Of a stretch of DNA of 64,000 bases, positions 1-6,000 are shown piece by piece. Made by a program: the position numbers. Origin of the DNA: Phycisphaerae bacterium (lineage in GTDB: Bacteria > Planctomycetota > Phycisphaerae > UBA1845 > Fen-1342); NCBI GenBank assembly GCA_050115495.1, contig JASFQK010000023.1, positions 1 to 64,000 on the forward strand, written 5' to 3'. The first letter of the stretch is position 1, and the number at the start of each line of letters is the position of its first letter.

Positions 1-3000
1 AATCCGTCGCCGAACCGGAGAAGCTCATCGCAGCAGAGGACGAACACCATGACCACACCGACCACGCACCAACCGCACGCCTTCGCCCTGACGGCGTTGC
101 TCTCCGATCTCCAGCCACACCCCGAACTCGACCTGCCGACGATGGCCTACCACCTCCGCCAATCCGACGCCACCGCCGCCAACGGTCATAGCCACGCCGC
201 CATCAATGAGGCCCGCGCCGCCCTCGAAGCCCTCATCGTCAGCATTGCCTGCACGATCCGCCGCGATCTGCCCGGCTGCACCGATCCCCCGCTCCGCGAA
301 CGCGTCCAGGCCGGAACGGCGTTCCGCACCCACCGCCGCTGCTTACTGGACGCCGGCTTCGTCGACCCCGACGAGAACGAGCTTCTGCAATACGTCTACA
401 GCGTCGCCACCGCCCGAGGCAGCCATTACGGCGTAACCGACGACGCCTGGACCGGCTTAGCTCGGCGAATCGTCTTCGCCGCCGGCCAGTACTTCACGCA
501 ACGTTACGCGATCTGGAAGCAAAACGGCCGCCAGCCGGCGTCACCTCCCGCCAATCACCGCCAGCCGCCGCCACGCTCCTGGCTCCCCCGCCTCCTCGCC
601 ACCCTCCTGCCCCGCCGACAACCACCCCCAACGCCCGCCACCTCCACCAGGAGATCAGCCCGCCGCAAACGTGCGAATGCACACACATAGAGCGTCGCGC
701 GGCGGTCGACGTCGGCCACGGGGGGCCGACGCTACAGAAGACGGCCGGCACGGAGACCGGCCGCTACACCTCGTTGCCTCCCCTCACTCCTTCTTCTGCG
801 CGTAGCCCATTTCGCGCAGGGCGCCGGTGATTTCGTCCAGGATCGTCGGGTCGTCGATCGTCGCCGGGACCTGGTACTCCGAGCCGTCGGCGATGCGCTT
901 CATCGTGCCGCGCAGGACCTTGCCGCTGCGCGTCTTCGGCAAGCGCTTCACGACCGTCACCAGCTTGAACGCCGCCACCGGACCGATGCGCTCGCGCACC
1001 ATCTGCACCAGTTCGCGGGCGATGTCTTCCTGCGGCGTTTCGATCCCCGCCTTCAGCACGACGAAGCCGAACGGCAACTCGCCCTTGAGCTGGTCGGCGA
1101 CGCCGATGACGGCGCATTCGGCGACCGCCGGATGGGAGGCCAGTACCTCTTCCATCCCGCCGGTGGAGAGGCGGTGGCCGGCGACGTTAATGATGTCGTC
1201 GGTGCGGGCCATGATGTAGATGTAGCCGTCCTCGTCGAACATGCCGGCGTCGCCGGTGAGGTAGTAACCGGAGTAGGCGGACAGATACGAGTCGATGTAG
1301 CCCTGGTCGTTGTTCCAGAGCGTCGGCAGACAGCCGGGCGGCAGGGGCAGCTTGACGACGATGCTGCCGATCTTGCCGACCGGAACGGGGTGGCCGCCCT
1401 CATCGAGAATGCGGATGTCGTAGCCCGGCGACGGCCGCGTCGGCGAGCCCGCCTTCACCGGCAGCGGGCACAGACCCATGCAGTTGGCGGCGATGCCCCA
1501 GGCCGTTTCCGTCTGCCACCAGTGATCGATGACCGGAACGCCCAGGTGCTGCTCGGCCCAGTGCAGCGTGTCGGGATCGCACCGCTCGCCGGCGAGGAAC
1601 AGGGCGCGGAAGTCGCCGAGGTTGTACTTCTTCAGGAATTCGCAGTTGGGGTCTTCGCGCTTGATGGCGCGGAAGGCGGTCGGGGCGGTGAAGAGCACGT
1701 TGACGTTATGCTCGGAGATGACCCGCCAGAAGGCGCCGGGGTCGGGCGTGCCGACGGGCTTGCCCTCGTACAGGATCGTAGTGCAGCCCTTGAGCAGGGG
1801 GGCGTAGAGGATGTACGAGTGGCCGACGACCCAGCCGATGTCGGAGGCGGCCCAGTAGACGTCGCCGGGCTCGACGTTGTAGATGGCCTTCATGGTCCAC
1901 TTCATGGCGACCGCATGGCCGCCGTTGTCGCGGACGACGCCCTTCGGCACGCCGGTGGTGCCGGAGGTGTAGAGGATGTAGAGCGGGTCGGTGGCCTGGA
2001 GCGGGACGCAGTCGACCGGCTGCGCGTCGGCCATCAGCTCGGTCCAGTCGAGATCGCGGCCGGCCTGCATGTCGGCGGTGAGCTGCGGGCGCTGGTAGAC
2101 GATGCAATGCTCCGGCTTGGGCGAGGACATGTGGATGGCCTCGTCGAGCAGGGGCTTGTACGGGATCGTCTTCTTGCCCTCGATGCCGCAGGAAGCGGAG
2201 ACGATCAGCTTCGGCCGGGCGTCGACGATGCGCTTGGCCAGCTCCTTGGCGGCGAAACCGCCGAAGACGACGGAGTGGATGGCGCCGATGCGGGCGCAGG
2301 CGAAGACGGCGACGACAGCCTCGGGGATCATCGGCATGTAAATGAGGACGCGGTCGCCCTTGGTGATGCCCTGGGCGGTGAGGACGCCGGCGAAGCGGGC
2401 GACGAGGTCGCGCAGCTCGCGGTAGGTGAACTTGCGGGTCGTGCCGGTGACGGGGCTGTCGTAGATGAGGGCCAACTGGTCGGCCCGGCCGTTCTCGACG
2501 TGATAGTCGAGGGCGTTGTAGCACGTATTGAGCTCGCCGCCGGCGAACCAGCGGTAGAACGGCTTGCGGCTGTCATCGAGGACGCGGTCCCACTTCTTGA
2601 ACCAGTGTATGTCCTCGGCGGCCTGGCCCCAGAACTGGTCGGGGGCTTCGATGGACTGCCGATAGAGTGCGTCGAACTCCGCCTTCTCCATTCGGTATCT
2701 CCTGCTTTCCTGGACGGTGAACCCGTGGCCGACATCGAAATCGGCTAAACGTGATCAGGTTTCGGGTACGCCGATCGGGGCCGGAATGGCCCGCAGAAAC
2801 GTAACAGGGGGAGCATATGCGGAGTCGGCCGCCGGTGCAACGCAGGGCGTGTCGCCGGCGGCCGACGTGTTGAGGGCACGAAAAAAGCGACGTGAGGTTT
2901 GGAGCTCGCCGCGCCCTTCAGAGTATTCGGTTCCGCTGCTTGGCACCCGCCGTCACCGGCCGACGCCATCCTCTCGGAGTTGGCTGCCCGTTCAGAGTTT

Positions 3001-6000
3001 CACCTGCCGAAGTAGCGCCCGTATCGGTTAGACGCTCCCGCTATGCCGTTGGCCGTTTCCTCGGCTTTGCGGTTTTCCCTCGGGCAGGCCCGGAGGACAC
3101 AGTTAAGCGCCCACGCGAACCTCTCTTCGGGTTTCGCTCTCCGCCAGAGTATTACCCAGCGGACCCTAGTCGCCCGGCCGAAGCCGGCCGACTCCTCTCA
3201 TGGGCTTCCACATCCCTTCAGCACGCTCAGACTCGGAGGTCCACTTACCACGGGCTTGCCTCACCCGCTACGTTCCGCCCTCAGGGTTTGGTCACCCTCT
3301 CGGCGGCTTACTCCCTCCGAGCCCCAGCCGGTTTTCTTTCGCACCGGCGGCGCTCATGGGATTCACCCTTCGGAGCTTTCCCCTCTCACAAGGTATCCAC
3401 GCGTCTCCGCGAGGAAGGACCCACTTACCGTTTCTCCTGCCGTTTCTACCGGTGCCGAAGCACCGAGCCGGCCCGGCAGGCCGCGGTTTCTGGGCTTTGA
3501 CCCTTGCGAGAGTCCCTGGCGACCGGAGCGGGATTAGCGCTCCGACCACTGGCTGCTCCCATGGGTTTCACCCTTCCAGGGTTTTCCACCGGAAGCCTTG
3601 GCCAAGCTTTCGCCCGGCCTCCTCTCACGCGCTTGCCGAACCCGCCCGAAGACGGGCCCGCGGCGCCCCAGAGTCTCGATCAGCCTCCGGCTGGTCCCAC
3701 CCGCCATAACGGCAAGCCGCTACGGACGGCCAAGACAGCCCTCATAGGGTTTCCGCACCTGCTAAATCCCAAACATTCGGGGGCGCGCTCTCCGGGTTAT
3801 GTATTCACCTCAGACCGCGTCGTACATTGCTGCCGACCGACCAGCCTTCCTTGGAGAGCCCCGCTTCCCTGCCGGAGCTGCTGGGACTCGCTTCGGTGCC
3901 GAGCCCGCGACCTCATCGTCACAAGAGTAAGGTTAGCACACGTTTAGCGTAAGGTCAAAAACGAGTTCGGGTATTGACAGTGTGTGAAATGCGCAGCGCG
4001 CAAGGCCACACTCGTAACTGACGGAAGCACCATGAGTAGGCGTCGATATATCGGACGGTTAAATCTATCGAAAAGACTTTCGCTGACATGTTATCCACAT
4101 GCTGTCCACTGATTGTGTTTTTGTGAAGATGCGGCGGGCTACAGGAGATTGGCGGCGAGCTCGGCCAGGGAGCTACGTTCACCCTTGCGCAACTCGATGT
4201 GCGCTGCGATCGGCTGGCTCCGAAACCGGTTCGCGAGGTGCGTGAAGCCGTTGCTCTCGGAGTCGACGTAGGGGTTATCGATCTGGTACGGATCGCCGGT
4301 GAGCACGACCTTCGCGTCCTGACCAATGCGGGTGATGATCGTCTTGACTTCGAGGGGGGTGAGGTTCTGGGCCTCGTCGATGACGACGTAGCGGCGGGCG
4401 ATGCTGCGGCCGCGGATGTAGGTGAGCGGCTGGATCTCCATCACGCCGGCGCGGAGCAGGCCGCCGCAGTCGGCGTGGCCCTTGATCGGGCCGCCGGTGT
4501 CCATGAGGAACTCGACCGTATCGACGACAGGCTTCATCCAGGGGGCAAGCTTGCTGCCGATGTCGCCGGGGAGATAGCCGAGGTCGCGACCGACGGGGAT
4601 GATCGGCCGGGCGACGAGGACGGCGCGGCAGCGCTTCTTGCGCAGGGTGATGTGCAGGGCGGCGGCGATGGCGAGCAGGGTCTTGCCGGTGCCCGCCTTG
4701 CCCATGAGCGTGACGAGCTGGATGTGCTCGTCGAGCAGGGCGTCGATGGCGAAGTATTGTTCCTTGTTGCGCGGGCGGATACCGCAGACGCCGGTCTCGG
4801 GGTCGTGCAGGGTGACGAGGCGGTGTTGGTCGGCGTCGTGGCGGGCCAGGGCGGAGCCGTGGCCGCCGTCCGCCGGGTGGAGCAGGACGTACTCGTTGGG
4901 CGACAGGTCGTCGTCGGGCCAGTCGAGGTGGCCGTCGCGGCGGAAGGTCTCGAACTGCTCGGACGTGATTTGGCGGTCGGTCTGGCCGGTGTAGACGTCC
5001 GAGAGCTGCACGTGGTCGGACTCGTAATCCTCGGCGCGGACGCCGACGGCGTCGGCCCGCACGCGGAGGTTGATGTCCTTGGTGACGACGACCACGGGGA
5101 CGTCGGGCTCGGTTTCGTGGATGCGGCGGGCGACGCGGAGGATCTCGGCGTCGGCGGAGCCGGTGTGGCGGTCGCTGATGGCCTCTTCCGGGGCGCAGTA
5201 GACGCGGAGCACGCCGCCGCTGTCGAGCGTCACGCCCGAGGCGAGGCTCTGGCCGTTGCGCAGGGCGTCGAGGACACGGACGACGGCGCGAGCGTTGTAG
5301 CCGCGGGCGGTCATTTCCTTCTTAAAACGGTCGATTTCGGTGATGACGCCGACGGGGATGATGACCGTGTTGTCGGCGAATTCGAAGACCGATTGGGGGT
5401 CGTGGAGGAGGACGTTGGCATCCAGGATGTAGTTCTTACGCATGTCGCCGCCAGTGTAGCACGTGGTGGCACCGACGCCAGAGGCGATGGCGGCAGGCGC
5501 TCGGCGTCGGTGTGGGCGCTCGGCGGAGCACGCGTTGCCAATAGTCGTCGCCCTGCTGGCCGACGCCGCAAACAGTGATGCGCTGCAGCCAAGACCTCTC
5601 GTACAGCGAACGCAGGGATTGTGTAAGCCCGGATCCCGTGAGGAGTTCTCGGATCCGGCAGCAGTGAGCCATAAGCGCATTCACAGTAATTGTTTACGCC
5701 TGGCGCCTGGGATCAGTTGAGAAACATGGGTCGTATTTCGGTTATGTCTCAGACATGGTAGCGATACTGCGCCGCTCTGTTACAATGAGGCCAGCCTTTG
5801 GTTGTTGCACTTGTCCAGGATTTCATGAAGGAGGAAGCATCCATGTTGAGACTATGCAGCAGGCTGGGATTGGGGCTCACGTTGATTGGGTGTGCTGGTA
5901 CGTTACCCGCCTTGGGCCAACCGCATGAACCGGCACACGTACAGGAGGGGCTTGGCGTAACACTGCCTCAGACCGCCCTTCTGCGAACCGGCTATGAGAT

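What a model noticed while it worked through the whole genome (the two positions that open the first line are those of the whole stretch)
2880..3930. A new giant structured non-coding RNA (~1050 nt), single-copy, order-wide and extremely abundant in metatranscriptomes
The uncalled stretch between acs and phoH holds an independent ~1050-nt RNA gene on the minus strand, with its own sigma70-type promoter and U-tailed 3' end, whose 5' and 3' ends pair to close an ornate multi-stem fold built of repeated helix/internal-loop modules. It is larger than typical GOLLD, ROOL and OLE RNAs, matches no Rfam family, is chromosomal and single-copy across much of Phycisphaerae order UBA1845, and is very highly represented in wetland and sediment metatranscriptomes.
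Evidence so far: No real Rfam hit even at E10. One copy in 34 of 61 order genomes, 9 of 10 family genomes; 50 GTDB loci by pattern, all Planctomycetota; neighbours vary except phoH upstream in 13 of 38. 47 non-redundant homologs (mean 70% identity, 1050-1137 nt): consensus fold of 333 pairs, 91% canonical, 249 pairs with two-sided compensatory change, 91 strongly, against 37-42% canonical and 0-1 strong for slid controls; indels and stops argue against a conserved ORF. Held by 24 RNA runs of 17 studies; summed contig depth peaking at 2e3 to 1.3e6 over the RNA, 0 at its borders and at most 62 over the flanking genes in 4 runs. A covariance model of its core finds it in 8 of 60 other Planctomycetota genomes ou [...]
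(Added by a program. Inside this text positions count along the whole contig: contig position 1 is position 1 of the stretch shown here. "Call 12" and the like, gene names such as g00115 and contig names such as C1 are that model's own, and its searches are not shown. The text may have been shortened before it was handed on; [...] marks where a part breaks off. The agent that wrote the report below was given it as the finding of a first reader that could run no searches.)

Follow-up and report, generated by a model that had tools for sequence, protein, structure and literature searches.

The report
Giant repeat-domain RNA tied to PhoH2
A 1,040-letter RNA gene that encodes no protein, found in three bacterial phyla, is built from one folded unit repeated five times; in this lineage it is kept or lost together with a ring-shaped RNA-unwinding, RNA-cutting enzyme (PhoH2), so it is probably that enzyme's RNA partner.

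Summary
The RNA gene is real: minus strand 3922-2887, conserved promoter, 5'/3' closing stem and U-tail. It has no Rfam match, MISL included. 63 full-length homologues (61% identity) give 322 pairs, 87% canonical, and indels exclude an ORF. New here: (1) It is not confined to Planctomycetota. A core model finds it in 30/150 Myxococcota, 22/150 Planctomycetota and 6/81 Eisenbacteria genomes, and 0/121 Spirochaetota and 0/150 Actinomycetota; sizes run from about 0.75 to 2 kb. (2) It consists of five paralogous branched domains carrying ten 3x3 loops whose outer pairs exchange A·A and G·G; no pseudoknot signal. (3) The upstream 'phoH' is PIN-PhoH (PhoH2). In 101 order genomes, all 43 with intact phoH2 have the RNA, 27 of them unlinked, and both are lost together repeatedly. 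It sits beside phoH2 in 6/6 Eisenbacteria. Against: 13/21 other RNA-bearing Planctomycetota and two single-contig genomes lack PhoH2, and binding is untested. An October 2026 preprint reports other PhoH2-adjacent candidate RNAs; this family may be among its unseen clusters. Best reading: an abundant multivalent RNA ligand and regulator of the PhoH2 ring (0.5).

The parts
2887..3922 (-). ncRNA gene, about 1,036 nt; ends inferred from promoter spacing and conservation
   Evidence: contigs identical to the window span 2892-3300 and 3357-3911 in run X1
2881..2886 (-). U-tail directly after the closing stem (inferred 3' end; no classical terminator hairpin called)
3912..3922 (-). P1 5' strand; pairs with 2887-2897 and closes the whole RNA
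   Evidence: (compensatory changes at columns 6, 7, 9, 10)
2887..2897 (-). P1 3' strand
3930..3958 (-). sigma70-type promoter: -35 TTGACC 3958-3953, 17 nt, extended -10 TG-c-TAACCT 3938-3930
   Evidence: conserved in position in 30 loci; not called by the scanner
4091..4099 (+). perfect DnaA-box-type 9-mer about 170 nt upstream of the start (consensus recalled); one of 10 in the genome
3755..3899 (-). D1, divergent first domain without the 3x3 loops; reduced in Eisenbacteria
3571..3749 (-). D2, repeat domain with outer loop AUG/GGA and inner loop GGG/GUG
3366..3565 (-). D3, repeat domain; the D4 model hits 3350-3585 at 32.9 bits, E 2.3e-6
3213..3361 (-). D4, the most conserved repeat domain and the core of model R1; kept in all phyla
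2913..3204 (-). D5, repeat domain that carries D6 inside one arm
2987..3131 (-). D6, nested repeat domain; the D4 model hits 2970-3154 at 21.9 bits, E 2.4e-5
4139..5443 (-). phoH2: PIN_4 + PhoH fusion, 434 aa. PIN acidic residues D8, E36, D98, D123 and Walker A/B are invariant in 33 relatives. Apparently leaderless, with -10 TACACT at 5458-5453 and no conserved small upstream ORF
784..2691 (-). acs-type acyl-CoA synthetase; downstream neighbour here only, not part of the system

Best explanation
An independently transcribed, very abundant chromosomal ncRNA that works as the multivalent RNA ligand of the hexameric PIN-PhoH (PhoH2) RNase-helicase. Shown: the RNA gene, its nested fold, five paralogous domains, ten homopurine 3x3 loops, and co-retention with phoH2 in this order and in Eisenbacteria. 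Inferred: each domain presents the same helix-loop surface; several subunits or rings of PhoH2 dock on one RNA; and because the RNA far outnumbers the enzyme, it holds the nuclease in check or loads it, as a decoy or scaffold taking the place of the small protein antitoxin known from mycobacteria. DnaA-type boxes upstream suggest that its level is tied to replication state (weaker inference).
For: Order sample of 101: 43 have both, 9 RNA only, 0 intact phoH2 only (1 has a broken fragment and no RNA), 48 neither (Fisher 3e-18, overstated by kinship). 27 of the 43 are unlinked, 15 adjacent, 1 within 2.4 kb. Concordance holds within families: f1 16 of 20 both and 4 neither; f7 4 of 19 both and 15 neither. 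The four f1 'neither' genomes need 3 changes on an RpoB tree (0 of 200 bootstraps with 1; starred branches force at least 2). A sensitive model search of 10 BLAST-negative genomes found nothing above 19.6 bits. Eisenbacteria: RNA in 6 of 81, phoH2 in 9 of 81, all 6 directly downstream of phoH2, 0 of 72 phoH2-negative genomes have the RNA. Myxococcota: 30 of 30 RNA-positive genomes have phoH2, 0 of 37 without. No other neighbour recurs across phyla. The enzyme looks catalytically intact, with no conserved small ORF upstream in 12 loci. PhoH2 is a hexameric RNA helicase-RNase with a protein antitoxin in mycobacteria (PMC7390352, passages). Other PhoH2 lineages lie beside other structured RNAs (bioRxiv 10.64898/2026.10.21.760802). 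Repeated motif: in the eight loops whose register was right, 975 of 1008 outer-position cells are AA or GG (summed), and AA/GG exchanges are the top off-structure covariations.
Against: No binding or activity data. In other Planctomycetota only 8 of 21 RNA-positive genomes have phoH2, against 34 of 128 RNA-negative ones (p 0.30); five checked by family carry only the short PhoH. Single-contig genomes G028 and G041 keep the RNA without phoH2. 83 Myxococcota genomes have phoH2 with no detected RNA. G931 keeps an intact phoH2 with only a roughly 75-nt 5' relic of the RNA. Domain number varies (about 0.75-2 kb), so there is no fixed six-to-six match. Shared ancestry as one transferred cassette explains the adjacency, and genome incompleteness inflates the 'neither' counts.
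Confidence: 0.5

Rival explanations
1. RNA-first particle. The RNA folds or self-assembles on its own (a GOLLD/ROOL-like cage or scaffold), with the homopurine loops as RNA-RNA docking sites. PhoH2 is its unfolding, maturing or turnover enzyme, which is why phoH2 is lost once the RNA is gone.
For: The asymmetry in the order (phoH2 never without the RNA, RNA sometimes without phoH2) fits this equally well. The RNA persists in phoH2-less lineages. It has many GNRA and A-rich loops. There is precedent for RNA-only cages (PMC12286853, passages).
Against: No stacked off-structure canonical covariation, that is no kissing-loop or pseudoknot signal, unlike GOLLD and ROOL (power limited, 63 sequences). 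Of the nine phoH2-less copies, seven (one cut by a contig end) are among the eight lowest-scoring distinct order loci, though distance may explain this.
Confidence: 0.25
2. Sponge or scaffold for a different protein (the short PhoH/YbeZ or an unknown RNA-binding protein). The phoH2 link is then a by-product of co-transfer or of a shared stress or dormancy regulon.
For: All ten RNA-positive, phoH2-negative genomes checked have the short PhoH. There is no association in other Planctomycetota. The order's PhoH2 scores higher against Eisenbacteria (up to 183 bits) than against other Planctomycetota (up to 148), which fits cassette transfer. Repeated sites are typical of sponges (recalled).
Against: Repeated joint loss of unlinked genes is not expected from history alone. 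The short PhoH is widespread (11 of 14 control genomes have a PhoH-family hit), so its presence says little. There are no GGA hairpin loops.
Confidence: 0.17
3. Selfish, mobile or catalytic RNA (intron-like, retroelement, satellite or ribozyme).
For: Patchy distribution, changing position, up to 6 copies, rearranged domain order in L305 and L364, and one 1,095-nt contig filed as viral (L082).
Against: Own promoter, intergenic, no ORF. No RT or integrase next to 134 flanking frames; one IS66 transposase. No match in 50,697 phage or 72,556 plasmid records. 1 true hit in four viral pattern scans. No intron or ribozyme family hit.
Confidence: 0.05
4. Not an RNA: a conserved protein-coding frame or a DNA element.
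For: Open frames of 150-200 codons overlap the region.
Against: Indels break the frame; compensatory pairing with G-U bias; contigs that consist of this element alone.
Confidence: 0.02

Closest known systems
PhoH2-associated candidate ncRNAs of the COMPASS preprint (bioRxiv 10.64898/2026.10.21.760802; read: outline, sections 2.5, 4.1, 4.15, 4.39 and found passages; figures, database and supplements not seen)
   Same: Structured ncRNA beside a PIN_4-PhoH gene, without an Rfam family, highly covered in RNA-seq; the preprint lists 13 clusters on the 3' side, the side used here.
   Different: Its lead example is a 357-nt Bacteroidota motif. The text has 0 hits for planctomyc, myxococc, eisen or phycisph and, in the parts read, says nothing of 1-2 kb size, iterated domains, homopurine loops or co-loss when unlinked. 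Whether this family is one of its Fig. S14 clusters could not be checked.
GOLLD and ROOL RNAs (PMC12286853, passages; PMC5737381, passages)
   Same: Large, multi-junction, abundant bacterial RNAs of unknown function.
   Different: No model match. Here chromosomal, not in phage collections and not beside tRNAs (0 tRNAs in the window); no pseudoknot or kissing signal; longer (GOLLD often above 800 nt, ROOL about 581-659 nt); internally repeated; linked to a protein.
MISL RNA (Rfam RF03079, 751 positions)
   Same: Large ncRNA; repeated substructures are recalled, not seen in any call.
   Different: 0 matches at E<=10 in G000 and none in 30 divergent loci.
Type III toxin-antitoxin RNAs (features recalled)
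   Same: Repeated RNA units beside an RNase gene; possible decoy role.
   Different: The RNA is downstream with its own promoter and often unlinked; the units are nested domains, not short tandem pseudoknots; the partner is PIN-PhoH.
OLE RNP; Y RNA-Ro60 nuclease RNP (recalled)
   Same: A structured ncRNA that organises or regulates protein partners.
   Different: Different fold, taxa and partner; no model match.

Membership tests
GOLLD / ROOL / OLE / raiA / MISL and all other Rfam 15 families | Match to the family covariance model | tested here: not met
   (only hit: an SRP RNA upstream in L361)
GOLLD / ROOL | Phage or prophage location, often near tRNAs | tested here: not met
GOLLD / ROOL | Pseudoknots or kissing loops seen by covariation | tested here: inconclusive
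   none among the top 220 pairs; power limited
GOLLD / ROOL | RNA-only homo-oligomeric cage | not testable with these tools
   needs cryo-EM or mass photometry
PhoH2-associated ncRNAs (COMPASS preprint) | Recurrent position next to a PIN_4-PhoH gene | tested here: met
   15 of 43 order genomes adjacent, 6 of 6 Eisenbacteria, L378; none of the Myxococcota or other Planctomycetota loci
PhoH2-associated ncRNAs (COMPASS preprint) | Conserved multistem structure without an Rfam family | tested here: met
PhoH2-associated ncRNAs (COMPASS preprint) | Identity with one of the 27 listed clusters | not testable with these tools
   figures, database and bioRxiv supplements not available
Type III toxin-antitoxin (recalled) | Tandem short repeats upstream of the toxin in one operon | tested here: not met
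   downstream, own promoter, 27 of 43 unlinked; direct repeats only 13-41 nt and dispersed
Type III toxin-antitoxin (recalled) | RNA neutralises the cognate RNase | not testable with these tools
   needs an assay
CsrB/RsmZ sponges (recalled) | GGA in hairpin loops | tested here: not met
   0 of 17 consensus loops hold GGA in more than 21% of members
RNase P RNA / tmRNA | Replaces the housekeeping RNA | tested here: not met
   G000 has a tmRNA on C5 and an RNase P-type motif on C15; no model match
Group I/II intron, retroelement | Interrupts a gene, carries an ORF or RT, matches a catalytic-domain model | tested here: not met

The most novel reading that the evidence does not exclude
A new housekeeping-scale ribonucleoprotein. 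A 1-2 kb RNA that arose by repeated duplication of one roughly 170-nt domain wraps a hexameric helicase-nuclease through ten isosteric homopurine loops, and gates bulk RNA decay according to replication or dormancy state in myxobacteria, planctomycetes and Eisenbacteria. That would make it one of the largest non-ribosomal bacterial RNAs with an assignable protein partner, and a natural RNA whose symmetry is written into one chain rather than reached by oligomerising.
Probability: 0.35. Interest if true: 0.93.

Novelty: new variant of a known kind. Interest (0 to 1): 0.8.

Why it matters
Large structured bacterial RNAs are rare, and most have no known function. This one is larger than GOLLD, ROOL and OLE, spans at least three phyla common in soils and sediments, and appears very abundant there. 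Unlike those classes it comes with a strong genetic lead to a specific enzyme, so the open questions of what giant ncRNAs do and what PhoH2 acts on become testable with one protein and a 150-nt domain. The iterated domain and its A·A/G·G loop are also a natural test case for modular RNA evolution and design.

Tried and rejected
BLAST across the class gave only short chance hits outside the order (none confirmed by profile). The first viral pattern had the wrong spacer, and its hit L079 is a coding chance match. Spirochaetota 0 of 121 and Actinomycetota 0 of 150, and five single genomes of other phyla, were negative; only 17-32 candidates per genome were scored in the large searches, so all phylum counts are lower bounds. 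7 of 9 viral-collection PhoH2 loci were scanned; none has the RNA. A 5'/3' duplex test on 80 metagenome contigs was weak (-22.5 against -19.5 kcal/mol swapped). Circularity: a terminal 15-mer recurs inside 3 of 80 contigs; not pursued. My loop registers for D5-inner and D6-outer were off by one, and those two rows were left out of the 975 of 1008 count. The one-clade test did not finish; 11 of the 16 positive f1 genomes besides G000 were in that tree. The G931 relic folds no better than shuffles (z -1.4). Papers: nine searches found no description of this family by these terms. The review of large bacterial ncRNAs was not held and the supplement of PMC5737381 was unreadable; either may bear on prior description. 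bioRxiv 10.1101/2025.09.11.675593 (passages) does not describe it. Earlier scan notes: nothing relevant.

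
Full report
1. The observation. Between phoH (4139-5443) and acs (784-2691) lies 1.45 kb without a credible gene. 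BLAST finds it once in G000 and in 53 of 101 order genomes; I dropped one 28-nt hit, leaving 52. Conservation has sharp edges: column agreement is 0.35-0.5 outside and mostly 0.7-0.9 inside. Just upstream sit a conserved -35, a 17-nt spacer and an extended -10; the 5' GYGAC pairs with the 3' GUCGC, and a U-run follows. The scanner called neither promoter nor terminator, so the ends 3922 and 2887 are inferred. 63 non-redundant full-length members are 1023-1133 nt long at 61% mean identity; 137 of 1457 indels keep frame. Their consensus has 322 pairs, 87% canonical, 271 with two-sided change, and 44 of the 50 best covarying pairs lie in it. A strict tree null passes 20 pairs, 17 of them canonical. 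G-U outnumbers A-C 2044 to 522, which fixes the minus strand. Rfam gives nothing for the window or for 30 divergent loci, and MISL, which is in Rfam, does not match.

2. Architecture. P1 closes a ring of D1, D2, D3, D4 and D5, with D6 nested in D5. D2-D6 share a plan: a closing helix broken by a 3x3 purine-rich loop, a three-way junction with a variable hairpin, a long stem, and a second junction holding another helix with the same loop. A covariance model of D4 alone also hits D3 and D6 of the window (32.9 and 21.9 bits) and paralogous domains of other members (29-46 bits), while flanking DNA reaches about 9 bits. So the RNA is internally repeated. The strongest covariations outside the nested fold are A·A/G·G exchanges across these loops (3743/3577, 3301/3280, 3745/3575, 3145/2975, 3066/3044 and others). 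In eight loops, 975 of 1008 outer cells are AA or GG. That points to one conserved non-canonical geometry used ten times. No stacked off-structure canonical pairs appeared, so there is no sign of pseudoknots.

3. Distribution. A pattern scan of GTDB gave true homologues in records titled Deltaproteobacteria, Myxococcales and Ca. Eiseniibacteriota, and in other Planctomycetota. The D4 model finds the RNA in 30 of 150 genomes of the Myxococcales record's phylum (up to 6 matches per genome), 22 of 150 Planctomycetota and 6 of 81 Eisenbacteria, and in 0 of 121 Spirochaetota and 0 of 150 Actinomycetota. The core helices stay 93% paired across phyla. Of 80 metagenome loci fetched (120 matched, row-capped), 77 are 1.0-2.1 kb, all 80 hit the profile, all 67 tested hit the model, and they form 70 clusters. 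Most contigs appear to consist of the RNA alone, and 41 end within 90 nt of the closing motif. I infer that they are assembled transcripts; the tool does not give their library type. Phage and plasmid records are negative.

4. Expression. 24 RNA runs of 17 studies hold it. Depth over the RNA exceeds the flanking genes by two to five orders of magnitude and is zero in both border bins. The runs were selected for the RNA and are contigs, so this supports a discrete abundant transcript but measures neither level nor strand.

5. The partner. The upstream gene is a PIN_4-PhoH fusion, PhoH2, with invariant PIN acidic residues and Walker motifs (PIN active-site rule from PMC5499597 passages). It appears leaderless, with no conserved small ORF before it. 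In mycobacteria PhoH2 is a hexameric RNA helicase-RNase with a small protein antitoxin (PMC7390352, passages). In the order sample, 43 genomes have both, 9 only the RNA, none an intact phoH2 alone, one a broken fragment without the RNA, and 48 neither. 27 of the 43 are unlinked. The four double-negative genomes of the own family fall in three places on an RpoB tree, and a sensitive search of ten negatives found no hidden copy. In Eisenbacteria all 6 RNAs follow phoH2 directly and none of 72 phoH2-negative genomes has one. Of the three phoH2-only genomes there, two have the gene at a contig end and one keeps a promoter and a 5' relic of the RNA one gene downstream. In Myxococcota, 30 of 30 RNA-positive genomes have phoH2, but so do 83 without a detected RNA. 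The link fails in other Planctomycetota (8 of 21 against 34 of 128) and in two single-contig genomes of the order. Other neighbours vary. DnaA-type boxes are enriched upstream of the promoter: 19 of 60 Phycisphaerae loci against 2 of 60 downstream and 0.33 against 0.03 per locus in shuffles; 6 of 6 Eisenbacteria, 11 of 19 other Planctomycetota, 6 of 18 Myxococcota; 6% of low-GC genome windows.

6. Mechanism. Shown: an independent RNA gene, an iterated fold, a repeated homopurine loop, and repeated joint loss with an unlinked nuclease-helicase. Inferred: physical binding through the repeated module, and control of the enzyme by an RNA in large excess (0.5). The same genetics fit an RNA-first particle that PhoH2 matures or recycles (0.25). 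A different protein partner with a historical phoH2 link is less likely (0.17), and a mobile or catalytic RNA is unlikely (0.05).

7. Known and new. It works like a large RNP-forming or decoy RNA. It is a member of no Rfam family and fails the tested features of GOLLD/ROOL, type III antitoxins and CsrB. A preprint of October 2026 nominates structured RNAs next to PhoH2, with a 357-nt Bacteroidota lead and 27 clusters in a figure I could not see. The association is therefore anticipated, and this family may be among those clusters. Its size, three-phylum range, repeat architecture, loop motif and co-loss were not found in the parts read or in nine searches. Verdict: a real new class of giant ncRNA, a new variant of a kind only just noticed; interest 0.8.

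Noticed in passing
window 4091-4099 and upstream of homologues (L208, L210, L283-L287, L090, L131, L133, L215, L220): DnaA-box-type 9-mers are enriched 100-270 nt upstream of the RNA start in three phyla; this may tie transcription to replication state.
   Followed up: partly
L102 (1,006-bp contig) and L115 (849-bp contig): Two isolate assemblies (titled Pilosibacter and Stutzerimonas) contain tiny contigs made only of a Planctomycetota-type copy of this RNA, probably carry-over from RNA libraries; L082 is the RNA filed as a viral contig.
   Followed up: partly
L432:338-450 (G931): A promoter and the first ~35 nt of the Eisenbacteria-type RNA close into a roughly 75-nt stem with all repeat domains missing, one gene downstream of an intact phoH2.
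   Followed up: partly
L305, L364, L349: Variants of 1.5-1.7 kb in which a D6-like segment precedes the D4 core: rearranged domain order.
   Followed up: no
L327, L335, L336, L357, L362, L371: A subfamily of about 1.8 kb with long insertions in D3 and D5 but the same ends and core.
   Followed up: no
L361:1-142: A large SRP RNA lies directly upstream of the RNA on the same contig and strand.
   Followed up: no
L090, L131, L133, just 3' of the U-tail: A conserved ~55-nt element follows the RNA in this Planctomycetota lineage; no Rfam hit in L090 or L131.
   Followed up: no
window 5444-5460; L095, L100, L106, L109, L143, L145: phoH2 appears leaderless: a -10 hexamer lies 6-10 nt before the start codon.
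   Followed up: partly
L234, L236, L239, L242; L131, L258, L263: Lineage-local neighbours: queG downstream in four Myxococcota loci, typA/bipA upstream in three Planctomycetota loci.
   Followed up: no
L291 (G001): A frameshifted phoH2 fragment with a stop, in a genome that lacks the RNA.
   Followed up: yes
window 49-690 and 5798-6967: A 213-aa ORF with no Pfam hit, and a 389-aa DUF3466-like repeat protein in lower-GC DNA beside phoH2.
   Followed up: no
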